A stretch of DNA of 55,706 nt from the IMG/VR virus record IMGVR_UViG_3300007345_000047; one strand, 5' to 3'. Under the pieces are notes generated by a model. The model was not told where the DNA came from, ran no database searches, and saw only the letters and a program-made list of their open reading frames with translations. Source of the DNA: a virus. Position 1 is the first letter of the stretch, and each line of letters begins with the position of its first letter. This document shows, in pieces, positions 1-18,292 of this stretch. A program made the translations under genes and the position numbers.

Positions 1-123
1 AGATCAGGGGGGTGCCCCCAGCAGCCAGCAGCAGCCAGCAGCCTGAGAGCCCCGCCAGGCGTGGCCTGTAGCCCTCCCAGCCAGCCACCAGCAGCCACCA
101 GCCAGCCCCGATCCGCTCCCAGC
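1..123. repeat. Terminal direct repeat / circularisation overlap, left copy
   Basis: Bases 1-123 recur exactly at 55584-55706, so the unit genome is 55583 bp. Confidence 0.95.
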
Positions 124-154
124 AGCCACCAGCCAGCCCCGATCCGCTCCCAGC
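93..154. repeat. Perfect tandem duplication of a 31-bp unit (agccaccagccagccccgatccgctcccagc)
   Basis: 93-123 equals 124-154, read directly. Confidence 0.95.
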
Positions 155-178
155 TGCTCCCAGCCACTGCGGCCACAG

Positions 179-227
<49 letters not shown>

Positions 228-426
228 TCGCGTTTTAAGGGAGCTGGGAGAGCTGCCAGCTGCCACCAGCAGCCCGCAGCGACCGACCAGTGTCTGACTG
301 ATGCCACAATCCCTGTAACAGACAACCATCAGACAACCCCAAGAGACACGCCACAAGCCCCATACCCTCTACCTCTATACCCCTTTATGTCTTAATGGGG
401 TATATAAGACATAGGCTACAGGCACA

Positions 427-447
427 GCTGCTGCTGCTGCTGCTGCT
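427..447. repeat. (GCT)7 trinucleotide microsatellite
   Basis: 7 uninterrupted gct units. Confidence 0.95.
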
Positions 448-597
448 ACAGCCCCAGCCACCAGCCCGCCCAGCTGGCGGTATACCCCCCTTCCGTCAGT
501 CATTCCAGACATCAGAATATTCCCAGTGTTTATGCGGGCTGTAGCCGGTCTGGCTCGGCACCCGTGTCTGGATGTGCCCGACACAGCAAATAATCGC

Positions 598-627
598 TTG
601 ACAGCGTAACGGATACGGGACTATGCT
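598..627 (+). promoter_or_regulatory. Sigma70-like early promoter candidate
   Basis: TTGACA (598-603), 18-bp spacer, TATGCT (622-627), just upstream of the first + strand start region. Confidence 0.4.
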
Positions 628-681
628 GCGAACGCAGCAACGGATTAACCAGCCCACAGGGCAAAACACAAGGAAAACGTA

Positions 682-768
682 ATGAATCAACAACTTAGAG
701 ACCACGGCATCAGCCTCCTGCTTATCGCAGCCCTTCTACTGGTACGCTTCGGAGGGGTCGCAGCATGA
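682..768 (+). CDS. Possible 28-aa hydrophobic leader peptide
   Basis: ATG 682 is preceded by ACAAGGA (668-674). The core is ISLLLIAALLLV. The TGA stop overlaps the ATG of the 765 gene (ATGA). Confidence 0.3.
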   Translation: MNQQLRDHGISLLLIAALLLVRFGGVAA

Positions 769-1532
769 ACGTACAATCACTGATAGCACGGGGCGCGATC
801 TTCTACTGCAGCACCAGCGGTGGCAAAGACAGTCAGGCGATGACAGCTCTTCTGGCACGCTTGATCCCTGCAGAGCAGCTGGTCTATGTGCACGCCAATC
901 TGGGTGAGGTCGAGTGGCACGGGGTGCAGGATCACATCAACGACACACTACCAGCCGGTGGTGAGCTAAACGTGGTCACGGCTAACTGGGCTGATGGCAC
1001 CGAGAAGACGCTGCTCGGCATGGTCGAGAATCGCGGTATGTGGCCGTCATCAGCCTACCGTCAGTGCACCAGCGACCTGAAGCGCAACCCGATCCAGAAG
1101 TTTATCCGCAGAGACCTGAAGGCACGCGGATCGAAGCTGGCCGTCAACTGCATGGGCATCCGATCCGAAGAATCCAAATCGAGAGCCAAGAACATCTCAG
1201 AGAAGTTCGTCGATGGCTGGAGGCTGGCCACTAAGGAGATGTGCGCGGCTGGCCGTGAAGTCTACGATTGGTATCCGCTCCACGACTGGTCAACTGAGAT
1301 GGTATTCGCCCAGATCAAGCGAGCTGGCCAGCAGCCACACTACGCATACGCCGAGGGCAACGAACGCCTAAGCTGCTGCTTCTGCATCATGGGCAGCAAA
1401 AACGACCTACGCAACGCCGCCCGTCTTCGCCCAGAGCTGGCAGCGAAGTACATCGCGCTGGAAGAGAAGATCGGCCACAGATTCACTGATAAGGCCACAC
1501 TGGCCGAACTGATAGCAACCGACGCGCAATAG
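765..1532 (+). CDS. PAPS reductase-like PP-loop ATP pyrophosphatase family protein
   Basis: N-terminal PP-loop FYCSTSGGKDSQAM and C-terminal Cys cluster ERLSCCFCIMG, typical of the PAPS reductase/DndC-like fold. Confidence 0.8.
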   Translation: MNVQSLIARGAIFYCSTSGGKDSQAMTALLARLIPAEQLVYVHANLGEVEWHGVQDHINDTLPAGGELNVVTANWADGTEKTLLGMVENRGMWPSSAYRQCTSDLKRNPIQKFIRRDLKARGSKLAVNCMGIRSEESKSRAKNISEKFVDGWRLATKEMCAAGREVYDWYPLHDWSTEMVFAQIKRAGQQPHYAYAEGNERLSCCFCIMGSKNDLRNAARLRPELAAKYIALEEKIGHRFTDKATLAELIATDAQ

Positions 1533-1592
1533 TCGAAACGGGGCGAGTCCCCGTCTGCAGGTCACGGCCTCCCTGCACTGATGAGACAGGCC
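1530..1592 (+). ncRNA. Type II hammerhead self-cleaving ribozyme, copy 1
   Basis: Order is UAGUC-GAAA, then stem III (ACGGGG/CCCCGU, loop CGAGU), then C1555 as cleavage site. Stem I follows (UGCAG 1556-1560 / CUGCA 1573-1577), then CUGAUGA (1578-1584), then GAC. The complete core is in the stem-II-open order. Confidence 0.85.
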
Positions 1593-1614
1593 AACAACTA
1601 CAAGGAATAAACGT

Positions 1615-2169
1615 ATGAACAAGTATCACTTCAATATTAAAGGATCAATGATCGACTCAGCCCGCGAGATACTAGGCGACCGAATGACAATGATCGGTAC
1701 GGGTGGAGGCTTCGATTATATTATGGTGCGATCCACCGAGAACCGTGACTTTGTGCTCTCCGGAGAGTGGTGCGATAGCTCGCCTGATTCGATGGATGAG
1801 TCCAGCAGCGTCTCGATCCAGAGGTGCAGCGCAGCAGAGTATGGCGAGTGGGATTGCGAGGGCTATGAGATCGCATTCGAGGGCACAGCCCAGCAGTGCC
1901 TGACATTTATGTCTATGCTCCCAGCTGTCTCTCTGGATGAGCGCAACGACGGCCTAGTGCGAGAGTTCGCCCAGATGTGCTCCGACCACTATCTGGAGAC
2001 GGGTGAAGACTTGCCCTATTCGACAGAGATGTTCGATGCCGACGGCACGAAGATCGTTAACCCGTGGATGGATGAGACCGGCAGATACCCCGTCGATCCC
2101 ACAGAGTACTACGGCATGGCATTCACAAAATGGTACGCGCCGACGCGAACCATTATGGGGAGTTTCTAA
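1615..2169 (+). CDS. Hypothetical protein (acidic)
   Basis: 184-aa ORF. The start is preceded by UACAAGGA (1599-1606). Confidence 0.6.
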   Translation: MNKYHFNIKGSMIDSAREILGDRMTMIGTGGGFDYIMVRSTENRDFVLSGEWCDSSPDSMDESSSVSIQRCSAAEYGEWDCEGYEIAFEGTAQQCLTFMSMLPAVSLDERNDGLVREFAQMCSDHYLETGEDLPYSTEMFDADGTKIVNPWMDETGRYPVDPTEYYGMAFTKWYAPTRTIMGSF

Positions 2170-2170
2170 T

Positions 2171-2356
2171 ATGAACCAGACTATATGGGTAACAATTGGG
2201 CATCAGTATGGGCGCGTCATCTACAAGCCAGCCAATGAGATCGCGAAGCTATTCGCAGATGTCGCTGGCACGCAGACTCTAACGCCCAATACCATCGCCC
2301 TGCTGAAGGCTGCAGGGTACACAATCAAAGTAGATCAACCGGAGGTGACAATATGA
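2171..2356 (+). CDS. Hypothetical protein (61 aa)
   Basis: ATG 2171 has GGGGAG 8 nt upstream. It is the in-frame tail of the listed ORF 2003..2356. Confidence 0.5.
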   Translation: MNQTIWVTIGHQYGRVIYKPANEIAKLFADVAGTQTLTPNTIALLKAAGYTIKVDQPEVTI

Positions 2357-2565
2357 TTATCGGAACTCTTATTGAAATGGCGCACACGTATGGCTTCCTC
2401 AATGCGGTAATGCTGCTGGCCGTGCTGGTCTGTCTCATTATCACGCTGATCGGGATGGTCACGGATCGCAGGGCTATGGAGCGGTTTCAGGCTGCGATGG
2501 CAACTAAGCGCGAGCAGCAGATGGTATGGGATCGCAACGAGTTCACAGATGAAATGATGAGTTGA
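2353..2565 (+). CDS. Small membrane protein
   Basis: GGAGG RBS and ATGA overlap with the upstream gene. One hydrophobic helix (FLNAVMLLAVLVCLIITLIGMV). Confidence 0.55.
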   Translation: MIIGTLIEMAHTYGFLNAVMLLAVLVCLIITLIGMVTDRRAMERFQAAMATKREQQMVWDRNEFTDEMMS

Positions 2566-2572
2566 GACTGTC

Positions 2573-2617
2573 GGTGACCTTCTAGCGAGGGTCACCCGCA
2601 GTAGCAATTCCGCTACT
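2573..2617 (+). promoter_or_regulatory. Conserved two-hairpin RNA motif, copy A
   Basis: Hairpin 1: GGTGACC-TTCTAGCGAG-GGTCACC (2573-2596). Hairpin 2: AGTAGC-AATTCC-GCTACT (2600-2617). The same architecture with different stem sequences occurs at 5344-5388. Confidence 0.5.
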
Positions 2618-2633
2618 TACAGGGAAACAAGTT

Positions 2634-3029
2634 ATGTCTAAGACAATTGAGCAGCAAATAGCAATAATCGAGAACGCATTAATGAGCCACTGCGAGGACT
2701 GTGTGAGCCGCCATGCAGAGCAGAGGCGAGTGGATAAAGCATTCGATGCACTCTGCAAACGGGCACTGCCATCAGGCCTGGCGAAAGCCTGGGACACAAA
2801 AAGCGAGCTCGAATTGACCGATCTATTAGAGTGGTACACCAGCGCAAATAGATTGCCGATGATGTCGGCAGATGAACTGCTTGCAGAGCTGCCAGACCTC
2901 GGGCTTACCGAGCGAGTGCAGGAATGCCACCGAGTGTGGCTGAACGCATTCTGTGAGGCGTGGGAGTTATTGGACGCGCCCAGCCAATCCGAAGAACTGA
3001 AGGCGGCCATACGCTGGATGAAGGTGTAG
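2634..3029 (+). CDS. Hypothetical protein
   Basis: 131-aa ORF. The start is preceded by UACAGGGA (2618-2625). Confidence 0.6.
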   Translation: MSKTIEQQIAIIENALMSHCEDCVSRHAEQRRVDKAFDALCKRALPSGLAKAWDTKSELELTDLLEWYTSANRLPMMSADELLAELPDLGLTERVQECHRVWLNAFCEAWELLDAPSQSEELKAAIRWMKV

Positions 3030-3094
3030 CCCAGACCGTCAATTAATGCTATAAAGCAATCCACACTCATTCATTTATTACAGGGAAAACAGTT

Positions 3095-3526
3095 ATGACA
3101 GCATTTACAGGTAAAATTGAAAACATCGAACGCATGGCCAGCAGCAGGAACGGCAACCCCCGCTACAAGTTCACCGTGGGCGGCCAGAGTGTCAAGCTGG
3201 CACCGGACAGCAGCTGGGGCTACTGCATCACCAACCTACGCAATCGCCACGTGACCGTAGAGGTCACGCCCCTACAGCATCTGGTTAAAAGCATCTGTGC
3301 TGCAGACCACTGGGAGGTCGAAGAGCTAGACGCATCTGGGGGATGGGAGAACAACTGGCACGATGAGACCGGCCAGCCCCAGACCTTCTCCACCAGAGGC
3401 GAAGCGCACGCAGAACTGGACGACCTGCTGGAGTCCGTGCAGCTGGCAGTGGCCGATGGTCACATGGCCGCAGAGTACAGCCGCGAAGATTACCGCGTAG
3501 TAATGGTCGGGGGGCGTGCAATATAG
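3095..3526 (+). CDS. Hypothetical protein
   Basis: 143-aa ORF. The start is preceded by UACAGGGA (3079-3086). Confidence 0.6.
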   Translation: MTAFTGKIENIERMASSRNGNPRYKFTVGGQSVKLAPDSSWGYCITNLRNRHVTVEVTPLQHLVKSICAADHWEVEELDASGGWENNWHDETGQPQTFSTRGEAHAELDDLLESVQLAVADGHMAAEYSREDYRVVMVGGRAI

Positions 3527-3586
3527 TCGAAACGGGGCGAGTCCCCGTCTGCAGATATCGGCCACCCTGCACTGATGAGACAGGCC
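3524..3586 (+). ncRNA. Type II hammerhead self-cleaving ribozyme, copy 2
   Basis: Same core and stems as copy 1: GAAAC 3529-3533, cleavage after C3549, CUGAUGA 3572-3578. It differs from copy 1 only at 4 loop-I positions. Confidence 0.85.
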
Positions 3587-3603
3587 ATTACACGGAGAAT
3601 GTT

Positions 3604-4332
3604 ATGAAGACAATCGAACTAATAGAACGCGCACCAATCTCGGAGGAGCTGAGAGCAGCCCTCCTTCCCGCAATAGCTAAGGCTGGCAAGTGGAGGGGGT
3701 CCCTGCTGGCCAACGCACCAGCCACCAATATCGCATGGCAGGTGCTGGTCGGTTTCGCTGCTCCAGCCCGCGTTAAGGTCTGGGGGATGATGGGCGAGAA
3801 CGCCGCACGATTCAATCACCTCGACGACCTAGCAGTGGCCAGCGGCATCAACTGGGCTAGAGCACTGAGCGCGACAGAGCCCTACGCACGCTGGAATGCC
3901 GATGGCCTAGATTTGGATCGCGATGCAATTCTGCGCGAGATCGAGCCGCACTTGCTACCAGCTAAGGCGACGGTAACTAAGAAGCGGGCGCATCCCTGCG
4001 TCGAGTTCCTAGATGTAGTGGCCGACGCACTGGCCGCTGGGTTCGGCGATATGCTGCACTTGGGGGAATTCAAAGACGATAGAGGCCATGACAAATTTAA
4101 GATAAAGCTGCTATGGGAGAACACTACTCTCAATGTGGTCATGGATAACAATGTGGCCGCGATCCGCGACCGTGCAGATCGCCTCGACCAGCAGATACGA
4201 GGTCATAAGGCCAAGGGAGAGGGCTCCACGCTAAAAGAGTACCGCAGGATGCGTAACTGGAAGCCCAGCTACAAAGTCGTGCCACTGAGCCCAGAGAGAG
4301 CCGCTGAGTGCGGCATGGAGATGGGGCTGTGA
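3604..4332 (+). CDS. Hypothetical protein
   Basis: 242-aa ORF. The start is preceded by UACACGGA (3589-3596). Confidence 0.6.
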   Translation: MKTIELIERAPISEELRAALLPAIAKAGKWRGSLLANAPATNIAWQVLVGFAAPARVKVWGMMGENAARFNHLDDLAVASGINWARALSATEPYARWNADGLDLDRDAILREIEPHLLPAKATVTKKRAHPCVEFLDVVADALAAGFGDMLHLGEFKDDRGHDKFKIKLLWENTTLNVVMDNNVAAIRDRADRLDQQIRGHKAKGEGSTLKEYRRMRNWKPSYKVVPLSPERAAECGMEMGL

Positions 4333-5333
4333 ACTACTATAACGAGTTCGACCCTTTCGCAGCCGCTTGGCTTGAAGAATTAATCAAAGACGGACTGATC
4401 CCAGCAGGGACAGTCGATCAGAGGAGCATTACCGATGTCAGACCCGAAGACCTTAAAGACTTTACCCAATGCCACTTTTTCGCAGGAATCGGCGGTTGGA
4501 GCTACGCACTCCAGCTTGCAGGATGGAGCCCCGATAGACCCGTCTGGACAGGATCACCCCCCTGCCAGCCTTTCTCAGTCGCAGGAAACCAAAAAGGTAA
4601 GGACGATCTTCGACACCTCTGGCCTGTCTTCTTCAATCTTATCCGCGAGTGTCAACCTGCAGTCGTTTTTGGTGAGCAGGTTGCCAGTGCGATTAGACAG
4701 TCTTGGTTCGACGATCTACAAACGGACATGGCGGCAGAAGGCTACGCCAGCGGATTGGCCGTACTGCCAGCTTGCAGCGTCGGTGCCCCGCACAAAAGGG
4801 AAAGACTCTTCTATGTCTCGGAGCGGATGGGCAACACCGAATACAATGGACGTACTGCCACTGAGGTCGGAAGAGGCTCTACGCAAGCAAGCGACAGGGG
4901 CGAGGAAGGGCAGGACGTTTCCAGCGAATCTACGGGAGCAGGTAGACCCTCGATCTCAGGAGATATACGCCGATGCGAGTTCTGTCCCCACGCCTACGAC
5001 GAAGAGCTTGGACGATACGGGTGCCCCAACTGTCTCGGTACAGGGTTGGACAACACCGAATACGCGGGACTGGAAGGACACAGCGGGGCAGTCAACGGAG
5101 GGGGAGGGCAACAGGCAGCGGATAGATCAAACGCCCAGGCAAGCGTTCCAGTTGATTGGAGCGATGTCTACTACCCCCGATTTAGGGACGGAAAATGCCG
5201 CCCAGTACCAACTGAATCCACGCTTTTCCCTTTGGCTCATGGGGTTCCCAACAGGGTGGGCATCCTGCGCGGAGCGGGTAACGCTATTGTCCCGCAAGTC
5301 GCAGCCGAAGTCATAAGGGCGTACATGGGCTGA
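4308..5333 (+). CDS. DNA (cytosine-5)-methyltransferase with internal zinc ribbon
   Basis: Motifs FAGIGG (I), PPCQPFS (IV), GEQV (VI), PHKRERLF (VIII), GAGNAIVPQV (X), plus CEFC-x12-CPNC. The start could instead be GTG 4329, which overlaps the upstream stop. Confidence 0.85.
   Translation: MRHGDGAVNYYNEFDPFAAAWLEELIKDGLIPAGTVDQRSITDVRPEDLKDFTQCHFFAGIGGWSYALQLAGWSPDRPVWTGSPPCQPFSVAGNQKGKDDLRHLWPVFFNLIRECQPAVVFGEQVASAIRQSWFDDLQTDMAAEGYASGLAVLPACSVGAPHKRERLFYVSERMGNTEYNGRTATEVGRGSTQASDRGEEGQDVSSESTGAGRPSISGDIRRCEFCPHAYDEELGRYGCPNCLGTGLDNTEYAGLEGHSGAVNGGGGQQAADRSNAQASVPVDWSDVYYPRFRDGKCRPVPTESTLFPLAHGVPNRVGILRGAGNAIVPQVAAEVIRAYMG
4435..5316 (+). other. 293-codon +1-frame ORF nested in the methyltransferase gene, with MTase-like motifs in its 3' half
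   Basis: Reads GWATPNTMD (4825-4851), GWTTPNTRDWKD (5044-5079) and LNPRFSLWLMGFPTGW (5212-5259). There is an in-frame ATG at 4813. The 5' part is low-complexity. Confidence 0.3.
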
Positions 5334-5343
5334 GAGCCTAACT

Positions 5344-5388
5344 GGGTAGTCTTCTCGCGAGGGCTACCCCTGATAGACTTTCCTATCA
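5344..5388 (+). promoter_or_regulatory. Conserved two-hairpin RNA motif, copy B
   Basis: Hairpin 1: GGGTAGTC-TTCTCGCGAG-GGCTACCC (5344-5369). Hairpin 2: TGATAG-ACTTTC-CTATCA (5371-5388). Confidence 0.5.
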
Positions 5389-5412
5389 ACTAGCATTTAC
5401 AAGGATAAAACT

Positions 5413-5802
5413 ATGAGCAATTACTTCTATAAATATAATGTGGCTCCGAAGGGTAAGAGAAGAGGCACCGTGAGATTCTTCAAAGCACTGTCGGACTGCA
5501 TCCAATTCGCAGAACTGCACGAGGGATCGCGACTAATGCACCGCAACCAAGTCGAGGGCGGCAGCGAGAGCCTGACCTGCACGCTCGACAGCCTGGATTC
5601 GGCCACACTAGGCACGTTCACCGACCGCGTGCAGCACGGATCGCGACCATCAGAACGGACAATCGATGTCTACGCGGAGGCGTACTCCTACGGATCGCAG
5701 GACAATGGCAAGCTGGTGGGTGTCATTTCCTGCTTTAAATTTGCCGACATCGATCAAATTCTAGCCACAAGGGGACTGTCCGATGTTATTTCTAACTCGT
5801 AA
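5413..5802 (+). CDS. Hypothetical protein
   Basis: 129-aa ORF. The start is preceded by UACAAGGAU (5398-5406). Confidence 0.6.
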   Translation: MSNYFYKYNVAPKGKRRGTVRFFKALSDCIQFAELHEGSRLMHRNQVEGGSESLTCTLDSLDSATLGTFTDRVQHGSRPSERTIDVYAEAYSYGSQDNGKLVGVISCFKFADIDQILATRGLSDVISNS

Positions 5803-5953
5803 GCCCCAACCAGGGCAGGATACAATACTCATAGGCGACAATATCCGCGTGGTTATACGCCGGATCGACGAGCACAATCAGGTACGGGTGGGCATCACAG
5901 CCCCGATAGAGATCAATATTGTCAGAGAGGAGATCGACAATCGTGGGAAATAA
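5783..5953 (+). CDS. csrA: CsrA/RsmA-family RNA-binding translational regulator homologue (56 aa)
   Basis: Not in the ORF track (too short). Own translation: MLFLTRKPQPGQDTILIGDNIRVVIRRIDEHNQVRVGITAPIEINIVREEIDNRGK. This aligns with CsrA MLILTRR..GE.L.IGD...V.V......QVR.G..AP....V.REEI. Confidence 0.8.
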   Translation: MLFLTRKPQPGQDTILIGDNIRVVIRRIDEHNQVRVGITAPIEINIVREEIDNRGK

Positions 5954-6140
5954 TCCGGATTACTACAGACTAGGCAACACCGTGTACGGTGCCAAGACGC
6001 GATGCAGTGACAGCCAGTGCGAGAGTAACTGCGTTTTTCCTGAGTGCTGCTGCGAGAAGAACGAGCATTCGACTGCAGCTGCAGCCGATAAAGCCGTGAA
6101 CTCTCTCAAGCTGCTGAAGAAGAAGGTCGAGATACTTTGA
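5943..6140 (+). CDS. Hypothetical Cys-rich small protein
   Basis: GTG 5943 has GAGGAG upstream; the track start is TTG 5919. The start is uncertain. Confidence 0.4.
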   Translation: MGNNPDYYRLGNTVYGAKTRCSDSQCESNCVFPECCCEKNEHSTAAAADKAVNSLKLLKKKVEIL

Positions 6141-6340
6141 TCTTCAAGCTGGCACGGGTGATCTTCGATGTCGTAGTGTTAACTACATCGAGCCCGTGCT
6201 CGCCGGAAATGGTACACTATCTACCATACGAGCCCGCCAATCCAGGGATAGTTAAGCTGGACGCACTACCAGATGGCGGGTGCATTATCCGATATAAGAC
6301 AGTGGACTTTAAGTTACCCGAAGACTGGGTGGGAGTATAA
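6137..6340 (+). CDS. Hypothetical protein
   Basis: ORF with a TTG start overlapping the upstream stop. Weak support. Confidence 0.3.
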   Translation: MIFKLARVIFDVVVLTTSSPCSPEMVHYLPYEPANPGIVKLDALPDGGCIIRYKTVDFKLPEDWVGV

Positions 6341-6341
6341 G

Positions 6342-6515
6342 ATGGCTAAGTCAGCAAGAGATAGAATGGCAGAGATGAGGGTGCGGCAGAAGGAGCTGGG
6401 GCGTAACAGTCGCCAGCTGTGGTTGACACCCTTCGAGGAGAACGAACTAAAAGTGCTGCTTGAGATATTACGAAGTGGCTCCGAGGTACGCGATCCCCAA
6501 GCCGACGATAGTTAG
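6342..6515 (+). CDS. Hypothetical small basic protein (57 aa)
   Basis: ATG 6342 lies directly after the previous stop. Sequence begins MAKSARDRMAEMRVRQKELGRNSRQLWLTPFEENELKVLLEILR. Confidence 0.45.
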   Translation: MAKSARDRMAEMRVRQKELGRNSRQLWLTPFEENELKVLLEILRSGSEVRDPQADDS

Positions 6516-6791
6516 AATCACTCCGATCCCCCACTTACCTACCCGAGTAGCACCGAGTAACTGGCCTTGCTGCTCGTGGTAGACCTTCACGAACTCCCGC
6601 ATATCCTCCGAATGCTTGCCTAAAGTGTGATTGATCTCGGTATGACGCGCAACAGCGTCCTTATTCATGGCTCGGAACTCCTGAGTGTGCTGGTTGAGAC
6701 GCTGCTCGTGTACCTCCGCAACCGTCTCAAGATGGCTGAGTCTTTTAGCGTGATCATCTTGTTTTTTCCATAATGCGGCAGCTTCTGGCAT
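6468..6791 (-). CDS. Tail-anchored coiled-coil membrane protein (XhlA-like from memory; possibly lysis-associated)
   Basis: Helical N-terminal part (RLSHLETVAEVHEQRLNQH) and a single C-terminal TM helix (WGIGVILTIVGLGIAYLG). Confidence 0.5.
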   Translation of the reverse strand: MPEAAALWKKQDDHAKRLSHLETVAEVHEQRLNQHTQEFRAMNKDAVARHTEINHTLGKHSEDMREFVKVYHEQQGQLLGATRVGKWGIGVILTIVGLGIAYLGATS

Positions 6792-6983
6792 AGCACGGGT
6801 CTCGGTTACATGAACAGTTTAACTAATTATCGCATTCGGAGGCTTGCTTTGTCACGCGGGGGATGCGTAGGATAGAGGGTACTCTCAAGCGATACGTGGG
6901 GTATCGCTGAGAATAGTCAAGGCATTCAACGGTTCGCCTCTTCACCAGGCTACTCAGCTGGGGACGAAATTACTGAGTTCTAG

Positions 6984-7008
6984 GGGATCCTTCGGGATCC
7001 CTTTTTTT
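6984..7008 (+). terminator. Rho-independent terminator, + strand orientation
   Basis: GGGATCC-TTCG-GGATCCC followed by seven T. In the - direction no U-tract follows the hairpin. Confidence 0.75.
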
Positions 7009-7216
7009 ATTTCCCGTACCGCTCGGTAACTACCTGCCGCAGCCACTCTATCAAGATCAGTGGCCACAGTGTGGTCCAAGCGAAGCAAACTAGGACGATT
7101 CCCAGCTCACCGTGCGCGTCATCTTCGGGCGCGAACGTGTTCAGTACGAATACGCACATCGCAAACAGCAGCCCGAAGCCAAGGTACAGCCCCAGCATAT
7201 CAATTACGACCATCAA
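7007..7216 (-). CDS. Small two-TM membrane protein (holin-like by topology only)
   Basis: 69 aa with two hydrophobic helices and a charged C-terminus. Confidence 0.5.
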   Translation of the reverse strand: MMVVIDMLGLYLGFGLLFAMCVFVLNTFAPEDDAHGELGIVLVCFAWTTLWPLILIEWLRQVVTERYGK

Positions 7217-7490
7217 GTTGTGGACCCTCCGCTTTACTTAGTCTTTCAGATATTAGGTTAGCATACCCAGCGATGTCCTCCCAGCTATCTAGGCAGTTGA
7301 TATCTCCGCAGCAGAGCCGTGCGATCTTAGTGGCGATCAGGTCCAGGCTATGCTTCTGCATCGACAGCCCCAGCTTATCGGGGAAGTTCATTGCTATCAC
7401 GGCCTTGAGGTCTTCTGCCATCTCGGCAGTGTCCTTATAGTCACCGTGCGTGCTTTCTCGTTGGTTCAGCACCTCGTGTTGGTAATCCAT
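7200..7490 (-). CDS. Conserved phage small protein (DUF6378-like from memory)
   Basis: 96-aa ORF containing STHGDY...IATKIARL...DSWEDIAGYA. Confidence 0.55.
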   Translation of the reverse strand: MDYQHEVLNQRESTHGDYKDTAEMAEDLKAVIAMNFPDKLGLSMQKHSLDLIATKIARLCCGDINCLDSWEDIAGYANLISERLSKAEGPQLDGRN

Positions 7491-7499
7491 GTCACTCTC

Positions 7500-8714
7500 C
7501 TACGCTATTTTATAGTCAACTTCGTGTTTTGGACGGGGTAATTCGTAAATCAGAGTAGAGTGCCGCCCGCCTTCTCTCTTGAATACTACCATCTGCATCG
7601 CCTGGATCGAGCTGTAGCCATTACTGGCATGCCAGCTGTCCGGTGGGGGTAACGCTGCAAACTTCTGAACGTAACAGCCGTCCAATTCTTTAACATCCTG
7701 ATGGTGGAAGTGACCCAGAGCCCACATACGGCTAGTAGTTCTGCCCCAGGCTTCGGCCATATCTCTGGCCATGACAGTGACCAGCTTCTCCGGCTTCATC
7801 TTGTCGCCGTGATTAATTCCGATCAGCCACTCGCCCCACTCTAGGTAGTGGAAGTAACCGTGTGTATCTAGGATAGTTACGCGGGGCTCATTGTGATAGA
7901 AGGCAGCGAGGATACGTTGGATCGCCAGTGCCACGTCAGGGTTGTGATTACCACGAGCAATTACTACCACTACTTTCTTAAATTTTCCGAGCATGGCCTC
8001 AATGCCGTGCCGCATACCCATCGCGGCCACATCCATAGTCCTGCCGTGCCGTGTGTCTACATCAACGGGGGTGCCCGCGAAGGTAGCATTCAGGCTGGAG
8101 TTACTGTGAGTGTAGTCACCGACATCGACCAGTAGTCCGGTCTCACACTGGGGAGCACGCTCGACCAGGTCGTCGATCGCAGCTGTCATATTGTCGTATG
8201 CAGTCTGGCTGTCGAAGTTGGAGTGCTTAGTCTCCTGCCCGTGAGCATACATCCCGTAGTGCGAGTCTCCTATAAAGATGCCAGCCATAAGATTCTTGTC
8301 GAACTTATCAGTCTTCTTCAGCTTGGGCTTTTTCTTGGCCGGATTGATGTCGAGGATAAGATTATCGACAAAGCCTTCGAGCTGCTTCTCCAGTGCTAGT
8401 TTATCGGGTGAGGCTTTGAGCCAGATCGGCTCGCCGTCAGGGGTCTTGGTTAGCATGGAGTACCCGCGATTCAGCTGGAAGCCTGGAGCTACCTTGCTGG
8501 ACATATCGTAGTCTGGGAAGACTCCACCCAGTGCGGCACGCTTTGCGACCTTAGACTTCATGGATACTATGGTTTCAGGGAACTCTAGCCCCAGCTTCTT
8601 AGCTGCAGCTGCAGCGGTTCCGGTCTCAATCCAAGCCTCAAGGCACTTGCGTTGATGGTCGGTATTACAGAACTCTAGTATCGCGGGATCAGGGGGTGCG
8701 GCTCTCATATACAT
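7500..8714 (-). CDS. Calcineurin-like metallophosphoesterase with N-terminal HTH-like region
   Basis: Motifs IGDSHYG, DVGDYTH, RGNHNPD and GHFHH, in the canonical order. Confidence 0.75.
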   Translation of the reverse strand: MYMRAAPPDPAILEFCNTDHQRKCLEAWIETGTAAAAAKKLGLEFPETIVSMKSKVAKRAALGGVFPDYDMSSKVAPGFQLNRGYSMLTKTPDGEPIWLKASPDKLALEKQLEGFVDNLILDINPAKKKPKLKKTDKFDKNLMAGIFIGDSHYGMYAHGQETKHSNFDSQTAYDNMTAAIDDLVERAPQCETGLLVDVGDYTHSNSSLNATFAGTPVDVDTRHGRTMDVAAMGMRHGIEAMLGKFKKVVVVIARGNHNPDVALAIQRILAAFYHNEPRVTILDTHGYFHYLEWGEWLIGINHGDKMKPEKLVTVMARDMAEAWGRTTSRMWALGHFHHQDVKELDGCYVQKFAALPPPDSWHASNGYSSIQAMQMVVFKREGGRHSTLIYELPRPKHEVDYKIA

Positions 8715-8744
8715 ATCCTTCTGGTTGTGGAACGACTTATTCTA

Positions 8745-9083
8745 TCACGTAATTAGTTGAATTCTCGGCGAATCTGGGCTCTCGTCCACAGAAGGTGCCA
8801 TGTCTAGGGGCTCTGGGAGGTCTAGCTCCTTACATACGCGACTGAATACTTGGTCTATACTGAGGCCACGGTACGTGTCAGTCAGCCCCAGAGCCATGAT
8901 TCCAGACGCATCCTTGTACATCCAGCCGATCACTCGGTAGATCATACGGATGTACTCGTCGGATAACTCCGCGTGGTTTAGTACCTTCTCGATGTTTTCA
9001 AAAGGTATCGGATCCGAAGGAACGCCGTCCTCTCGCAAGACCTCTTTGTTTATCCAGTCCTGCACTATCTCTAGGTGGCTCAT
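8745..9083 (-). CDS. Hypothetical protein
   Basis: 112-aa ORF, co-directional and tightly packed with its neighbours. Confidence 0.6.
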   Translation of the reverse strand: MSHLEIVQDWINKEVLREDGVPSDPIPFENIEKVLNHAELSDEYIRMIYRVIGWMYKDASGIMALGLTDTYRGLSIDQVFSRVCKELDLPEPLDMAPSVDESPDSPRIQLIT

Positions 9084-9610
9084 ATAGTTAACTCCTCGTA
9101 TCGGTATAAGAATAAGTCCTTCGAATCGTGGCCGACTGGCAACGGGTGATCGTGTGGCTGTGCGAACGGGAACCTCTCCTCGTACAGCGCATCTATCTCT
9201 GGGCTACGCGCACACAGTCTCAGTCTCTCGGTGACCAGGGCACGCACGTCTGCTTTCTTGACGTTCTCATTGAGCACGGGTGCTAGGTCAAACTTCTGAC
9301 AGATGGCAAGCCAGATGCCCTGCTCGAAGTGCCGGATCTGCGGGATCATTTCCTTCATGGGAGTGACAGTGTCACCCACATACGCTTCGGCTGCGTCGTG
9401 CATCAGAGCAGATAACTTAGTGTTCCTGTTCCCCTGCACTATCCAAGAGCAGTACACGCTGTGCGCTGCTACTGAGTAAGGCTGGCTGGTAGCACCGTTG
9501 AACCTATTAATGTGGGATAGATGGTGCGCGATGTCCTCGATGCAGATCGCATCCTGCAAGGGCATGGCCAGGTCTAGTATCTTCCCGCTGTGCGTGGCTA
9601 TTTTACTCAT
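9080..9610 (-). CDS. HD-domain phosphohydrolase (YfbR-type 5'-nucleotidase-like)
   Basis: Motifs IAHHLSHINRFNG and LMHDAAEAYVGD. The start is taken at ATG 9610 (MSKIATH, GGAG RBS) rather than track start 9700. Confidence 0.75.
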   Translation of the reverse strand: MSKIATHSGKILDLAMPLQDAICIEDIAHHLSHINRFNGATSQPYSVAAHSVYCSWIVQGNRNTKLSALMHDAAEAYVGDTVTPMKEMIPQIRHFEQGIWLAICQKFDLAPVLNENVKKADVRALVTERLRLCARSPEIDALYEERFPFAQPHDHPLPVGHDSKDLFLYRYEELTI

Positions 9611-9755
9611 TGTCTTTCTCCAGTGCTTTCTCGTACTTCTTTTTCGCAGCCACATAAGCATAAGCAGCATCAGCAGCAGCAGCATAAGAATCAGCACCAA
9701 TCCAGACCTTGTACTTCTCTTCCATGTCTTTCTTTAGTTCTTCTAAGTTACTCAT
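9603..9755 (-). CDS. Small paralogous-array protein (50 aa)
   Basis: Own translation: MSNLEELKKDMEEKYKVWIGADSYAAAADAAYAYVAAKKKYEKALEKDNE. It is paralogous to the N-terminus of the 10857..11222 product. ATGAGTAA junctions occur at both ends. Confidence 0.5.
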   Translation of the reverse strand: MSNLEELKKDMEEKYKVWIGADSYAAAADAAYAYVAAKKKYEKALEKDNE

Positions 9756-10011
9756 CGTTCTTCTCCAGTGCTGCTTTGATTCGCTCCAACAAAGGGTCAG
9801 AACTCATACCTACTTGACCCAATGCGTCCACCCTATTTCTGTGCAGTGCCGCCAAATCCTCCCTGCTTATGCTCACTCTCTCACTACTGGTAGCGGGTGC
9901 AGCATCCTTCTCCAGCTCGGCTATGCGGTCTGCTGCTCTCTGACATAGCTTTATCAGATACCTTTCCGAGCATCCGTGGCATTCCCTAAGCTGTCCCTCT
10001 AACTCACTCAT
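9748..10011 (-). CDS. Small paralogous-array protein (87 aa)
   Basis: Contains the APATSSERVSISRED module and the IKAALEKNDE terminus. Confidence 0.55.
   Translation of the reverse strand: MSELEGQLRECHGCSERYLIKLCQRAADRIAELEKDAAPATSSERVSISREDLAALHRNRVDALGQVGMSSDPLLERIKAALEKNDE
9856..9900. repeat. 45-bp dispersed repeat, copy 1 (partner at 10989-11033; 1 mismatch)
   Basis: atcctccctgcttatgctcactctctcactactggt[a/g]gcgggtgc, read directly. Confidence 0.9.
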
Positions 10012-10462
10012 GAGATTGCTCCAGTGCTGCTTTGAGTTCGTTGAAGAATGGCGTCCTCATGTCGCTGTCCTCTAAGTATTTCCCGTTCAGCGCAGGATTG
10101 TTGAGAATACTAAACATCTTCTCAGCACACTCCCTGCTTATCATTACATCACTACTGGTGGCGGTGTTGAGTGCGTGATCTATAGCCATGATCGCGAAGG
10201 CTTGGTTACTGTCTGGGTTTTCAATAGCGTACTTAGCGCACTCTAATGCTTCGATAAGTCGTCCATCACTACTGGTGGCGGTAGGCTCTAGTTCCATTAA
10301 TTCCATAGGACTTTTCGGCTCTGGTGGCGCTACATAGCCATGTTTTGCGGCATAGGCTAATGCGTTATCCCTAGCAGACTGTCGAATTGTCTTTACTGTC
10401 TCTAGCAACTTCGGGTCATCAATTTCATGCCATCTAAATAACATATCTAATTCATCTTCCAT
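10004..10462 (-). CDS. Small paralogous-array protein (about 152 aa)
   Basis: Start chosen at ATG 10462 (GGAGAG RBS). It has two ATSSD modules and the LKAALEQSHE terminus. Confidence 0.5.
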   Translation of the reverse strand: MEDELDMLFRWHEIDDPKLLETVKTIRQSARDNALAYAAKHGYVAPPEPKSPMELMELEPTATSSDGRLIEALECAKYAIENPDSNQAFAIMAIDHALNTATSSDVMISRECAEKMFSILNNPALNGKYLEDSDMRTPFFNELKAALEQSHE

Positions 10463-10488
10463 TCTCACTCTCCATATTATCAGTTGGG

Positions 10489-10617
10489 TTAGGGTTTTAA
10501 CTTCGCCTCTTTCCATGTAGAGGGCGGCAAGGTTGTTTGTCCCCACTCTGGATGATTCCAAACAGCGGTTGCAGCATCCTTCTCCATCTCGGCTATGTGG
10601 TCTAACAATTCACTCAC
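10489..10617 (-). CDS. Possible small paralogous-array protein (42 aa, GTG start)
   Basis: A GTGAGTGA junction with the upstream stop. It encodes SELLDHIAEMEKDAA, paralogous to AADRIAELEKDAA of the 9748 gene. Confidence 0.3.
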   Translation of the reverse strand: MSELLDHIAEMEKDAATAVWNHPEWGQTTLPPSTWKEAKLKP

Positions 10618-10864
10618 TGTTACTCTCCGAATAAATCCTGAATGTTTTGGCGGTACAGGTCGATCTGAGAACCTGCTGCTCGTTTGAGGCATCACCGCCT
10701 GATTGCCTAAGTAATTCTGTCTCTAGCAGTTTTTCAAAGGCTTCCCAGTTCGTGCTCTCGCCCTTTCGTTTGGCTATTTGGTAGGCGCTTCGCAAAACCC
10801 CGTTAATATCGGCTGGCTCTTGATATTCCTGCTTATAGTAATTTGTAATGCTGTCTTCACTCAT
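10610..10864 (-). CDS. Small array protein (84 aa)
   Basis: ATG 10864 lies in an ATGAGTGA junction with the upstream stop. Confidence 0.5.
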   Translation of the reverse strand: MSEDSITNYYKQEYQEPADINGVLRSAYQIAKRKGESTNWEAFEKLLETELLRQSGGDASNEQQVLRSTCTAKTFRIYSESNSE

Positions 10865-11222: not shown

Positions 11223-11225
11223 AGA

Positions 11226-16328: not shown

Positions 16329-16354
16329 ATCCTTTCTCCGGTTAAATGTTTCTG

Positions 16355-16397: not shown

Positions 16398-16446
16398 CAC
16401 CAAAACAAAATGAATTCCAAAATTTTCAAATAGGCACCGGAACTGT

Positions 16447-18290: not shown

Positions 18291-18292
18291 AC

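What the first reader, a model, noticed from the sequence alone, without database searches (positions are those of the whole stretch)
4435..5316. Methyltransferase gene carries MTase-like motifs in two overlapping reading frames
Frame A (4308..5333) reads as a complete C5-MTase. It has FAGIGG, PPCQPFS, GEQV, PHKRERLF, a CxxC-x12-CxxC ribbon (4974-5033) and GAGNAIVPQV (5271-5300). The +1 frame stays open for 293 codons, all inside frame A. Its first third looks like off-frame junk. From about 4820 it reads GWATPNTMD (4825-4851), GWTTPNTRDWKD (5044-5079) and LNPRFSLWLMGFPTGW (5212-5259). From memory, W-x-T-P-x-x-x-D repeats and an L-N/T-P-x-F-x-x-W-L-M-G-F-P-x-G-W element (motif IX-like) are hallmarks of another group of phage C5-MTases. 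The same nucleotides give MGNTEYNGR, LDNTEYAGLEGH and FPLAHGVPNRVG in frame A, which also resemble known MTase C-terminal regions. One DNA segment therefore encodes recognisable MTase motifs in both frames. Possible explanations are true dual coding or an evolutionary frameshift relic. Dual coding could give an alternative target-recognition or C-terminal module by frameshifting, or by internal initiation at ATG 4813.
Basis: partly seen in the sequence, partly recalled or inferred. Interest (0 to 1): 0.8.

Follow-up and report, generated by a model that had tools for sequence, protein, structure and literature searches.

The report
Methyltransferase gene with nested second gene
This phage cytosine-methyltransferase gene really does encode two proteins in two overlapping reading frames, probably the two halves of one enzyme; one E. 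coli enzyme (M.EcoHK31I) was shown to be built this way in 1995, and here the layout turns out to be conserved across thousands of phage and prophage genes.

Summary

Frame A (alpha, most likely 4329..5333) carries C5-methyltransferase motifs I, IV, VI, VIII and X. Its middle part (about 4812-5156) is an unconstrained, disordered linker.

Frame B (beta, 4435..5316, +1) has its own Shine-Dalgarno sequence (AGGAG, 4422-4426). It carries a conserved helix and hairpin, WxTPxxxD modules, and a motif IX-like element (LNPRFSLWLMGFPTGW).

- In 111 related loci from phages, metagenomes and bacteria of many phyla, both frames stay open. Frame B has 0 stops where 69 are expected. Frame A's middle has 0 where 108 are expected. 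The third frame behaves as chance predicts.
- Purifying selection switches between the frames segment by segment, and in some segments it acts on both.
- This matches M.EcoHK31I, a two-polypeptide C5-methyltransferase whose beta chain (motif IX) lies inside the alpha gene in another frame. Sequence relatedness to M.EcoHK31I could not be tested.
- Frameshifting, and initiation at ATG 4813, are not supported.

Verdict: real dual coding, a new member of a known but rare kind.

The parts
4329..5333 (+). alpha gene (frame A), C5-cytosine methyltransferase large subunit, 334 aa. The stop-to-stop ORF begins at GTG 4308, but GTG 4329 (MNYYNEFD) is the likely start.
   Evidence: The ORF is listed. PF00145 gives 72.4 bits over residues 81-177 and phrog_363 gives E = 8e-79. 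hhalign matches M.HhaI residues 3-171 at 98.4% probability. P0254 (99% identical) and the other homologues start at MNYYNE. GTG 4329 overlaps the stop codon (4330-4332) of the upstream ORF.
4435..5316 (+). beta gene (frame B, +1), nested entirely inside alpha, 293 aa. Proposed small subunit that carries the target-recognition modules and motif IX.
   Evidence: The ORF is listed. It hits phrog_1008 at E = 2.9e-24, and finds 732 homologous clusters and 6448 representative clusters. Stop avoidance is shown, and frame-B-specific purifying selection.
4421..4426 (+). Shine-Dalgarno sequence for beta: GAGGAG, with core AGGAG at 4422-4426, 8 nt upstream of ATG 4435. It is built from alpha's codons Gln-Arg(AGG)-Ser.
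   Evidence: The sequence is shown. The same AGGAG plus ATG arrangement occurs in L004, L005, L007, L008, L026, L030, L039 and L046. The AGG codon is used in 20 of 33 loci that have the ATG, against 3 of 29 without it (Fisher p = 5e-5).
4479..4496 (+). alpha motif I (FAGIGG), AdoMet binding.
   Evidence: It is aligned to FAGLGG of M.HhaI.
4557..4577 (+). alpha motif IV (PPCQPFS), with the catalytic cysteine.
   Evidence: It is aligned to FPCQAFS of M.HhaI.
4671..4682 (+). alpha motif VI (GEQV, an ENV variant).
   Evidence: It is aligned to MENV of M.HhaI.
4788..4811 (+). alpha motif VIII (PHKRERLF).
   Evidence: It is aligned to PQKRERIY of M.HhaI. Here frame A pNN/pSN is 0.37 and frame B pNN/pNS is 1.25-1.33.
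4435..4632 (+). beta N-terminal leader (residues 1-66). It is kept open but has no amino-acid constraint and is predicted disordered. The same DNA encodes alpha motifs I-IV.
   Evidence: Frame B pNN/pNS is 1.11-1.15 against frame A 0.33. Frame A's wobble position is the most variable. AF2 pLDDT is below 50 for residues 8-63. Stops: 0 observed against 69 expected across 28 loci.
4633..4782 (+). beta helix (residues 67-87) plus beta-hairpin (residues 96-116; GSTIYKRTWRQKATPADWPYCQLAAS). It is dual-coded with alpha motifs VI-VIII. Proposed alpha-binding region.
   Evidence: AF2 pLDDT is 71-90. Purifying selection acts on both frames over 4633-4704: frame B 0.44-0.50, frame A 0.33-0.34. The conserved pattern is LQxSLxSRLxxxLxxxGSxxYxLTWKxxxTPxGR.
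4812..5156 (+). alpha central linker, low-complexity and rich in G, R, S and E. It is the off-frame reading of beta's modules and includes the non-conserved CxxC-x12-CxxC at 4974-5033.
   Evidence: Frame A pNN/pSN is 1.0-1.2 in the modules. AF2 pLDDT is below 50 for residues 156-324. It is nevertheless kept open: 0 stops against 108 expected over 28 loci, and in the window 0 against 4.2. The CxxC motif is absent from P0255.
4825..4971 (+). beta module 1: GWATPNTMD plus its conserved tail ...LRSEEALRKQATGARKGRTFPANLREQVDPRSQEIYA.
   Evidence: The module is conserved in frame B in P0001, P0005, P0011, P0015, P0017 and P0027, and in L004, L005 and L008. Frame B's wobble position is the most variable. 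pNN/pNS is 0.58-0.85.
5044..5079 (+). beta module 2: GWTTPNTRDWKD.
   Evidence: Frame B pNN/pNS is 0.63 [0.48-0.81] against frame A 1.01. Module number varies from 0 to 6 among 95 homologues, and reaches about 10 in P0027.
5212..5259 (+). beta motif IX-like element: LNPRFSLWLMGFPTGW.
   Evidence: This is the strongest frame-B constraint: pNN/pNS 0.27-0.29. Columns L, N, P, W, L, G and P are invariant in 95 sequences. AF2 predicts a helix at residues 262-268 with pLDDT about 76. It is the only hhalign match of the beta profile to M.HhaI, at KLHPRECARVMGYPDSYK (residues 273-290, motif IX), E = 0.064.
5157..5330 (+). alpha C-terminal conserved block: WSD..CRDGKxRPxPTE..FPLAHGVPNRVGILRGAGNAIVPQVAAEVIRAYMG. 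Motif X (GNAIVPQ) lies within 5271-5300.
   Evidence: The block is conserved in frame A in all homologues. Frame A pNN/pSN is 0.54-0.57 over 5170-5211 and 0.26-0.38 over 5260-5313, while frame B is 0.88-1.05 in both. AF2 predicts a C-terminal helix at residues 329-340 with pLDDT 86-88.

Best explanation
One stretch of DNA encodes two proteins on the same strand, and together they probably form a single C5-cytosine DNA methyltransferase.

**alpha (frame A, about 4329..5333)** is the large catalytic domain. It has motifs I, IV, VI and VIII at the N-terminus and the motif X helix at the C-terminus. The two ends are tied together by a roughly 115-residue linker that is unconstrained and disordered.

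**beta (frame B, 4435..5316)** is translated independently, from its own Shine-Dalgarno sequence and ATG inside alpha. After a disordered leader it has four conserved parts:
- a helix and hairpin, proposed to dock onto alpha;
- a variable number of WxTPxxxD modules, proposed to be the DNA target-recognition part;
- a motif IX-like helix.

So beta supplies what the 'small domain' (TRD plus motif IX) supplies in single-chain enzymes such as M.HhaI. This is the architecture shown experimentally for M.EcoHK31I.

**Shown here:** both frames are held open by selection; purifying selection on the two proteins is mosaic; the internal ribosome-binding site is conserved; the layout is conserved across a very large family.

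**Inferred:** beta is translated; alpha and beta associate; both are needed for methylation; beta determines specificity.

The enzyme is most likely an orphan phage methyltransferase that protects phage DNA from host restriction. No restriction gene was seen next to it, but this was not examined in depth.
For: 1. **Reciprocal stop avoidance.**
   - In 34 unique homologues, frame +1 has stops only in the first 30-50 and last 5-15 codons of frame A, except in L036 and L037. Frame +2 has 6-34 stops.
   - Synonymous shuffling of frame A in 28 loci: 0 frame-B stops observed against 69 expected between motif I and motif VIII (lowest of 300 shuffles: 50), and 6 against 61 downstream. Frame +2 matches expectation.
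   - Synonymous shuffling of frame B: 0 frame-A stops in the central region against 108 expected (lowest: 88). The third frame gives 160 against 152.
2. **Mosaic selection**, with both a frame-B-guided and a frame-A-guided alignment and with bootstrap intervals.
   - Frame A only: 4417-4632, motif VIII, 5260-5313.
   - Frame B only: the WxTP modules.
   - Both frames: 4633-4704 and 5212-5259.
3. **Internal start for beta.** AGGAG plus 8 nt plus ATG 4435. The AGG codon co-occurs with the ATG across loci (p = 5e-5). A second clade uses GGAG..TAG-ATG 18 nt further upstream.
4. **Universality.**
   - L005 has 538-aa and 513-aa nested ORFs.
   - All 80 bacterial-genome loci found through beta's motif IX carry an overlapping ORF in the -1 frame, and in nearly all of them it carries methyltransferase motifs IV, VI, VIII and X. 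The phyla include Proteobacteria, Planctomycetota, Verrucomicrobiota, Bacteroidota and Chloroflexota.
   - Kagunavirus K1ind1 annotates both ORFs.
5. **Division of labour.**
   - alpha matches M.HhaI, Pfam and TIGR00675 only through motif VIII.
   - AF2 on alpha: residues 10-155 ordered, 156-324 disordered, C-terminal helix ordered.
   - AF2 on beta: ordered exactly where frame B is under selection.
   - beta's only match to M.HhaI is at motif IX.
6. **Precedent.**
Against: - There is no direct evidence here that beta is translated, and none that alpha and beta interact.
- The match of beta's element to M.HhaI motif IX is weak (hhalign E = 0.064, probability below 1%). Pfam and PDB sequence searches with the short segment found nothing relevant.
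- The beta AF2 model is low-confidence overall (mean pLDDT 56) and has no significant structural neighbour.
- alpha itself has a faint motif IX-like stretch (RPVPTE..LFPLA) on the same nucleotides. That region carries some frame-A constraint (0.57-0.63), so alpha may not be wholly dependent on beta.
- 16 of 63 loci have no ATG at either of the two canonical beta start positions, so beta's start must differ there.
- Loci share ancestry, so the summed shuffle statistics overstate the number of independent observations.
Confidence: 0.72

Rival explanations
1. beta is a real, translated, nested protein, but it works independently of methylation. It might be a regulator, an anti-defence factor or a DNA-binding accessory protein, and alpha would be a self-sufficient methyltransferase.
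For: - Dual coding itself is well supported, but the alpha-beta partnership is only inferred.
- beta has no Pfam or NCBIfam family and no structural neighbour.
- The motif IX match is statistically weak.
- alpha has a faint motif IX-like stretch of its own on the same nucleotides.
Against: - alpha has nothing recognisable or constrained between motif VIII and its last 60 or so residues. It therefore lacks the small domain that every structurally known C5-methyltransferase needs for DNA recognition (PMC3404938).
- The element that is missing from alpha (L.P.....[LV]MG[FY]P..[WY]) is the best-conserved part of beta, and it sits where motif IX would sit, just before motif X.
- beta is never found apart from alpha in the 111 loci examined.
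- The experimentally tested analogue, M.EcoHK31I, needs both chains.
Confidence: 0.15
2. Programmed ribosomal frameshifting makes one canonical chain. The ribosome reads frame A for motifs I-VIII, shifts +1 into frame B for the modules and motif IX, then shifts -1 back into frame A for motif X.
For: - The motif order across the frames (I-VIII in A, IX in B, X in A) is exactly the canonical order.
- A shift right after ...GFPTGW (5259) would read on as GILRGAGNAIVPQ (sequence).
Against: - Frame B is kept stop-free for about 125 codons upstream of any useful shift point: 0 stops against 69 expected.
- Frame A is kept stop-free through the whole middle: 0 against 108 expected. A frameshifting mechanism would need neither.
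- beta's conserved helix and hairpin (4633-4782) are encoded by the same nucleotides as alpha's motifs VI-VIII, and both are under selection. One chain cannot contain both.
- beta has its own conserved Shine-Dalgarno sequence and ATG.
- The hybrid would leave only about 6 residues between motif IX and motif X, against about 13 in M.HhaI.
- No canonical slippery heptamer is visible at 5250-5262 on direct reading. This was not scanned systematically.
Confidence: 0.04
3. Frame B is not translated. It would be a frameshift relic, or an open frame produced by composition and codon bias, and its 'motifs' would be echoes of frame A's conservation.
For: - In the window alone, the absence of frame-B stops within each half is only marginal (P = 0.07 and 0.26).
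- The first third of frame B shows no amino-acid constraint.
- Long alternative-frame ORFs do occur in GC-rich genes.
Against: - Openness is conserved in homologues down to about 40% alpha identity and across widely different GC content, whereas the +2 frame is at chance.
- Frame-B-synonymous changes are favoured exactly in the modules and motif IX, where frame A is neutral or less constrained.
- Insertions add whole WxTPxxxD modules that read well in frame B and as low-complexity sequence in frame A.
- The Shine-Dalgarno sequence co-varies with the ATG.
- AF2 finds confident secondary structure where frame B is constrained.
Confidence: 0.03

Closest known systems
M.EcoHK31I (E. coli HK31, recognises YGGCCR): a two-polypeptide C5-methyltransferase whose beta gene is nested in the alpha gene (Lee, Kam & Shaw 1995, as described in PMC2836561 and PMC3404938)
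   Same: - beta is encoded entirely inside alpha, on the same strand, in another reading frame.
[quoted passage not shown]
- beta's N-terminal part is dispensable or disordered (42 residues there, about 63 here), and is followed by a region needed for association with alpha.
- Several in-frame Met codons can start beta.
   Different: - Sequence relatedness was not tested, because the EcoHK31I sequence was not on hand.
- Here beta overlaps almost the whole of alpha (293 of 334 codons) and starts upstream of motif I.
- The literature places the predicted TRD of EcoHK31I in alpha. Here alpha's 'variable region' is unconstrained and disordered, and the conserved modular elements are in beta.
- EcoHK31I belongs to a restriction-modification system. 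This gene sits in a phage, with no restriction gene noticed nearby.
M.AquI: a two-subunit C5-methyltransferase
   Same: It is a natural C5-methyltransferase built from two polypeptides split within or around the variable region (PMC3404938).
   Different: [quoted passage not shown] Here motif X stays in alpha and only the motif IX side is in beta, and the beta gene is nested inside alpha in another reading frame.
Monomeric C5-methyltransferases (M.HhaI, M.HaeIII; PF00145, TIGR00675 dcm)
   Same: alpha aligns to M.HhaI residues 3-171 (motifs I-VIII) at 98.4% hhalign probability and passes the Pfam gathering score. The division into large and small domains corresponds to alpha and beta.
   Different: No single chain contains all ten motifs. 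alpha is below the TIGR00675 cut-off (48.5 against 100.65 bits). The TRD and motif IX are read from another frame.
Kagunavirus (K1ind1, K1H, NTEC3 and others) 'C-specific methylase' plus 'Mte8-like protein'; PHROG families phrog_363 and phrog_1008
   Same: This is the same gene family, at about 69% nucleotide identity. GenBank GU196279 already annotates both nested ORFs: ORF29 at 1471-2295 and ORF28 at 1559-2251 of L001. NTEC3 annotates only the frame-B ORF, as 'methyltransferase'. phrog_1008 collects frame-B products.
   Different: The annotations are inconsistent: one frame, the other, or both. I found no statement in the searchable literature that the two are subunits of one enzyme or that the overlap is under selection.

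Membership tests
C5-cytosine DNA methyltransferase (PF00145 / dcm) | Motifs I (FxGxG), IV (PCQ), VI (ENV) and VIII (QxRxR) in one chain, aligned to a solved enzyme | tested here: met
   alpha: FAGIGG, PPCQPFS, GEQV and PHKRERLF align to M.HhaI residues 3-171 (hhalign 98.4%; phmmer E = 1.5e-9). PF00145 scores 72.4 bits against a cut-off of 22.
C5-cytosine DNA methyltransferase (PF00145 / dcm) | TRD plus motif IX, and motif X, in the same polypeptide as motifs I-VIII (full-length family membership) | tested here: not met
   alpha's profile matches stop at motif VIII (Pfam profile positions 66-166 of 324; TIGR00675 positions 26-162 of 329, 48.5 bits against a cut-off of 100.65). Motif X (GNAIVPQ) is present by pattern only. 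The motif IX-like element is in frame B.
M.EcoHK31I-type nested two-polypeptide C5-methyltransferase | beta ORF entirely inside the alpha ORF, on the same strand, in a different frame | tested here: met
   4435..5316 lies within 4329..5333, in the +1 frame. The arrangement is conserved in 111 loci.
M.EcoHK31I-type nested two-polypeptide C5-methyltransferase | alpha carries motifs I-VIII and X | tested here: met
   Motif X is invariant as GNAIV in 86 alpha homologues, and AF2 predicts a confident C-terminal helix.
M.EcoHK31I-type nested two-polypeptide C5-methyltransferase | beta carries motif IX | tested here: inconclusive
   The best, and only, hhalign match of the beta profile to M.HhaI is at motif IX: QLNPRFSLWLMGFPTGWA against KLHPRECARVMGYPDSYK. 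However, E = 0.064. Pfam and PDB searches with the short segment found nothing.
M.EcoHK31I-type nested two-polypeptide C5-methyltransferase | Both polypeptides are made, and both are required for methylation | not testable with these tools
   The only support is indirect: stop avoidance in both frames, a conserved Shine-Dalgarno sequence and ATG, and selection on both proteins.
M.EcoHK31I-type nested two-polypeptide C5-methyltransferase | [quoted passage not shown] | not tested
   The sequence is not in the material I could reach. The 1995 paper is not held, and no supplement text is held for PMC2836561.
M.AquI-type split C5-methyltransferase | The small subunit carries motifs IX and X | tested here: not met
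   Motif X is in alpha, and beta ends 17 nt before alpha's stop without a GN(A/S)V motif.
Programmed-frameshift gene | The alternative frame is needed only downstream of a shift site; the zero frame is not needed beyond it; there is no independent start | tested here: not met
   Both frames are kept open throughout. An independent Shine-Dalgarno sequence and ATG are present. The conserved elements of alpha and beta overlap each other.

The most novel reading that the evidence does not exclude
In this very large family (possibly including M.EcoHK31I), DNA target recognition may reside in the nested beta subunit rather than in alpha's 'variable region'. beta would act as a modular array of WxTPxxxD units, with 0 to about 10 copies that are swapped between close relatives. 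alpha's middle would be only an off-frame tether whose sole requirement is to contain no stop codon. If so, this would be one of the longest and most widespread same-strand overlapping gene pairs known in dsDNA phages and bacteria. It would also mean that thousands of database 'DNA cytosine methyltransferases' are incomplete enzymes whose partners are unannotated or labelled hypothetical.
Probability: 0.5. Interest if true: 0.7.

Novelty: new member of a known kind. Interest (0 to 1): 0.6.

Why it matters
1. **A rare, clean case.** Long same-strand overlapping genes are rare in dsDNA phages and bacteria, and are usually contested. This one is about 880 nt long. Selection keeps both frames open, and the amino-acid constraint visibly passes from one frame to the other. 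That makes it useful as a benchmark for methods that detect overlapping genes.
2. **An annotation problem.** Gene callers pick one frame or the other. At least 8000 alpha-type proteins are labelled 'DNA cytosine methyltransferase'. Thousands of beta-type proteins are labelled 'hypothetical', 'Mte8-like' or 'methyltransferase'. The beta family has no Pfam or NCBIfam model.
3. **A consequence for experiments.** Anyone who expresses only the alpha ORF of such a phage methyltransferase, for methylome work or for evading restriction in phage engineering, may get an inactive or unspecific enzyme.
4. **A possible handle on specificity.** If beta's modules set the target sequence, they offer a natural, swappable way to change it. 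They would also revise the published domain assignment for M.EcoHK31I.

Tried and rejected
The alpha-beta interface therefore remains unmodelled.
- **Foldseek of the beta and alpha models against the PDB.** Nothing significant was found. For beta the best hit had E = 0.2 (a cyanase). For alpha, M.HhaI ranked second at E = 0.026. The large disordered parts spoil the comparison.
- **Pfam scan of short C-terminal pieces (frame A, frame B and hybrid), and phmmer of beta's motif IX segment against the PDB.** There were no relevant hits. A profile of beta against PDB sequences also found nothing at E <= 1.
- **Search for single-chain relatives that carry the beta motifs in frame with PF00145.** Among the ten longest of the top 150 representatives, only P0133 qualified. 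It jumps from alpha's motif VI straight into beta and lacks motif VIII, so it is probably an indel artefact. More distant hits could not be inspected.
- **Literature.**
  - 'Mte8' gave only a passing mention.
  - Searches on overlapping or nested methyltransferase genes found nothing on this phage family.
  - The motif-string search returned only noise.
  - The original M.EcoHK31I paper and the supplement of PMC2836561 are not held.
- **Megablast of window 1-20000 against the phage records.** No match, so the phage is not a close relative of a deposited genome.
- **ATG 4813 as beta's start.** Rejected. That Met is not conserved, and the start would cut off the conserved helix and hairpin.
- **The frame-A CxxC-x12-CxxC motif as a zinc ribbon.** Rejected as a conserved feature, because it is absent from P0255.
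Full report
**1. The observation**

- Frame A: 4308..5333, 341 aa.
- Frame B (+1): 4435..5316, 293 aa, nested inside frame A.

Every quoted peptide translates at the quoted coordinates.

The window alone already departs from chance.
- The +1 frame is stop-free for 305 codons. P = 0.0032 under synonymous-codon shuffling of frame A, and P = 0.0004 under codon permutation.
- The +2 frame reaches only 59 codons.

**2. Independent hits for each frame**

| Test | Frame A | Frame B |
|---|---|---|
| Pfam | PF00145, E = 5.9e-20, residues 81-177 only | none |
| PHROGs | phrog_363, E = 8e-79, full length | phrog_1008 'DNA methyltransferase', E = 2.9e-24, residues 8-279 |
| NCBIfam | TIGR00675, 48.5 bits, below the 100.65 cut-off | none |
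| PDB | M.HhaI residues 70-172 only | none |

- Frame B finds 732 protein clusters. Many cover it end to end at 35-57% identity, and none of the best 120 has a Pfam domain.
- Its C-terminal 206 residues find 6448 clusters at 50% identity in an exhaustive search.
- These homologues differ mainly in how many W(P/A)TPxxxD units they carry: 0 to 6 among 95 sequences, and about ten in P0027.

**3. The frame-B proteins come from the same genes**

- I fetched the DNA for two frame-B homologues. Both frames are open there too. In L005 frame A is 538 aa and frame B is 513 aa, and the gene caller had simply chosen frame B.
- In Kagunavirus K1ind1, which is about 69% identical in nucleotide sequence, the 2010 GenBank record annotates both: ORF29 'C-specific methylase' with ORF28 'Mte8-like protein' nested in it. 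Phage NTEC3 annotates only the frame-B ORF.
- In 34 unique homologues from viral contigs, phages and metagenomes, frame +1 has stops only in the first 30-50 and last 5-15 codons of frame A. The exceptions are L036 and L037, which carry an insertion. Frame +2 has 6-34 stops.
- A scan of one genome per bacterial species, using frame B's most conserved peptide, found 372 loci. In all 80 that were fetched, the -1 frame holds an overlapping ORF, and in nearly all of them it carries methyltransferase motifs IV, VI, VIII and X. The hosts include Proteobacteria, Planctomycetota, Verrucomicrobiota, Bacteroidota and Chloroflexota.

**4. Both frames are kept open by selection**

| Shuffle test | Region | Stops observed | Stops expected |
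|---|---|---|---|
| Frame A synonymous codons shuffled, 28 loci | Frame B, 10 codons before motif I to motif VIII | 0 | 69 (lowest of 300 shuffles: 50) |
| Same | Frame B, downstream of motif VIII | 6 | 61 |
| Same | Frame +2 | as expected | as expected |
| Frame B synonymous codons shuffled | Frame A, central region | 0 | 108 (lowest: 88) |
| Same, window alone | Frame A, central region | 0 | 4.2 (0 of 300 shuffles reached zero) |
| Same | Third frame | 160 | 152 |

The loci share ancestry, so these sums overstate the number of independent observations. Even so, the loci span about 40-60% alpha identity and very different GC content.

**5. Amino-acid selection alternates between the frames**

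Per-position diversity:
- From 4417 to 4632, frame A's wobble position is by far the most variable (0.54-0.59, against 0.12-0.34 at the other two positions).
- In the WxTP modules and at 5212-5247, frame B's wobble position is the most variable.

I also ran an OLGenie-style count, which classes each change as synonymous or non-synonymous in each frame. Values below are from the frame-A-guided alignment with bootstrap intervals. The frame-B-guided alignment gives the same picture.

| Segment | Frame B pNN/pNS | Frame A pNN/pSN | Constrained frame |
|---|---|---|---|
| 4417-4632 | 1.11 [0.82-1.52] | 0.33 | A |
| 4633-4704 | 0.44 [0.27-0.69] | 0.34 | both |
| 4705-4776 | 0.70 | 0.61 | both, weaker |
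| Motif VIII (4777-4812) | 1.25 | 0.37 | A |
| Module 1 (4822-4857) | 0.85 [0.73-0.98] | 1.23 | B |
| Module 2 (5041-5079) | 0.63 [0.48-0.81] | 1.01 | B |
| 5170-5211 | 0.92 | 0.54 | A |
| 5212-5259 | 0.27 [0.10-0.59] | 0.57 | B strongly, A partly |
| 5260-5313 | 1.05 | 0.26 | A |

This has two consequences.
- Frame A's MGNTEYNGR and LDNTEYAGLEGH are unconstrained shadows of frame B's modules.
- Frame B's first 66 residues are an unconstrained shadow of frame A's motifs I-IV.

**6. Frame B has its own start**

- AGGAG (4422-4426) lies 8 nt upstream of ATG 4435.
- It is made from alpha's Arg codon AGG in the conserved D-E/Q-R-S-I sequence.
- The same AGGAG plus ATG arrangement recurs in L004, L005, L007, L008, L026, L030, L039 and L046.
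- Across 63 unique loci, AGG is used in 20 of 33 that have the ATG and in 3 of 29 that lack it (Fisher p = 5e-5).
- A second clade has GGAG..TAG-ATG 18 nt further upstream.
- Sixteen loci have neither ATG and must start elsewhere.
- The Met at 4813 is not conserved, and it lies downstream of conserved frame-B elements.

**7. Structure predictions**

*beta, with a 95-sequence alignment*
- Residues 1-63 are disordered.
- A helix at 67-87 and a hairpin at 96-116 have pLDDT 71-90.
- The motif IX-like helix at 262-268 has pLDDT of about 76.
- The rest is of moderate or low confidence, as would be expected for a subunit modelled without its partner or DNA.

*alpha, with an 86-sequence alignment*
- Residues 10-155 are ordered (pLDDT up to 94).
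- Residues 156-324 are below 50.
- The C-terminal helix at 329-340 (motif X) has pLDDT 86-88.

Structural searches were uninformative.

**8. Comparison with M.HhaI**

I first confirmed that the M.HhaI sequence I used is identical to PDB entry 10mh_A.
- The alpha part of the hybrid alignment aligns to M.HhaI residues 3-171 (motifs I-VIII) at 98.4% probability.
- The beta profile has a single local match to M.HhaI: QLNPRFSLWLMGFPTGWA against KLHPRECARVMGYPDSYK (residues 273-290). This is M.HhaI's motif IX, but the match is weak (E = 0.064).

The match is in the right place, since motif X follows at once in frame A. On its own it is not significant.

**9. What it is**

- Here alpha corresponds to the large domain, with a disordered tether where the small domain would be inserted.
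- beta corresponds to the small domain, plus a docking element and a dispensable leader.

This layout has an experimental precedent in M.EcoHK31I (PMC2836561; PMC3404938):
[quoted passage not shown] - both chains are required;
- the first 42 residues of beta are dispensable, and further truncation weakens association with alpha;
- several in-frame Met codons can start beta.

I therefore read the window's gene as a phage member of this kind. I could not test sequence homology to M.EcoHK31I.

One difference deserves attention. The literature assigns the predicted TRD of M.EcoHK31I to alpha. In this family alpha's middle is neutral, and the conserved, modular, copy-number-variable elements are in beta. 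The nearest diverged relative, P0255, has nearly identical alpha ends but a swapped middle. This is what a specificity module would be expected to show.

**10. Rival explanations**

- *Double programmed frameshifting.* It would give the canonical motif order, but it explains neither the openness of frame B upstream nor the openness of frame A in the middle. It is also incompatible with beta's helix and hairpin sharing nucleotides with alpha's motifs VI-VIII while both are under selection.
- *An untranslated relic.* The comparative data exclude it.
- *A translated beta with an unrelated function.* This remains possible, at about 15%, because the partnership between alpha and beta is inferred rather than shown.

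**11. Verdict**

The finding is real dual coding. It is more interesting than a relic, but it is not a new principle. It is a new member of a rare kind known since 1995, now seen to be very widespread and inconsistently annotated.

Noticed in passing
window 5783-5953 (+): A small ORF (56 aa) just downstream of the methyltransferase matches phage CsrA-like regulator families (phrog_9500, E = 4e-11). A phage-encoded CsrA-type post-transcriptional regulator would be worth a look.
   Followed up: partly
window 4308-4332: alpha most likely starts at GTG 4329 (MNYYNEFD, as in P0254 and the other homologues) rather than at GTG 4308. GTG 4329 overlaps the TGA stop (4330-4332) of the upstream 242-aa ORF 3604..4332, giving a GTGA arrangement that suggests translational coupling. 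The upstream ORF has no PHROG hit.
   Followed up: partly
window 4974-5033 (frame A): The CxxC-x12-CxxC 'ribbon' in frame A lies in alpha's unconstrained linker. It is absent from the closest diverged relative, P0255, whose central part is swapped, so it is probably fortuitous.
   Followed up: yes
proteins P0214 and P0245 (beta homologues): Some beta homologues carry insertions in frame. P0214 has an HNH_3/NUMOD4 homing-endonuclease domain. P0245 has a Cys-rich, HNH-like segment of about 190 aa. It is unclear how alpha's frame copes with such insertions.
   Followed up: no
protein P0126: Here the beta reading frame is continuous with an upstream ORF that has an NPPY motif and looks like an N6-adenine methyltransferase, giving a 524-aa called protein. 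This could be a read-through artefact of gene calling or a real fusion.
   Followed up: no
protein P0133: This called protein runs in alpha's frame up to motif VI (IFGEQV) and then continues in beta's frame to beta's stop, skipping motif VIII. It is probably an indel or assembly error. It is the only 'single-chain' candidate I found.
   Followed up: partly
L036 and L037 (viral contigs), alpha residues about 300-450: These two loci have an insertion of about 150 aa in alpha between ...DGVP and motif X. They are also the viral-contig loci where frame B has internal stops, so beta ends early there and alpha has an extra C-terminal segment.
   Followed up: no
window 27917-36442 (-) and 38842-43161 (-): There are very large ORFs of 2841 aa and 1439 aa on the minus strand. 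The first 20 kb of the window has no megablast match in about 50,000 deposited phage genomes, so this is a phage without close sequenced relatives. The giant ORF recalls the virion RNA polymerase of N4-like phages, but that is from memory and was not tested.
   Followed up: no
I did not examine it, so it cannot serve as a control for this finding in either direction.
   Followed up: no
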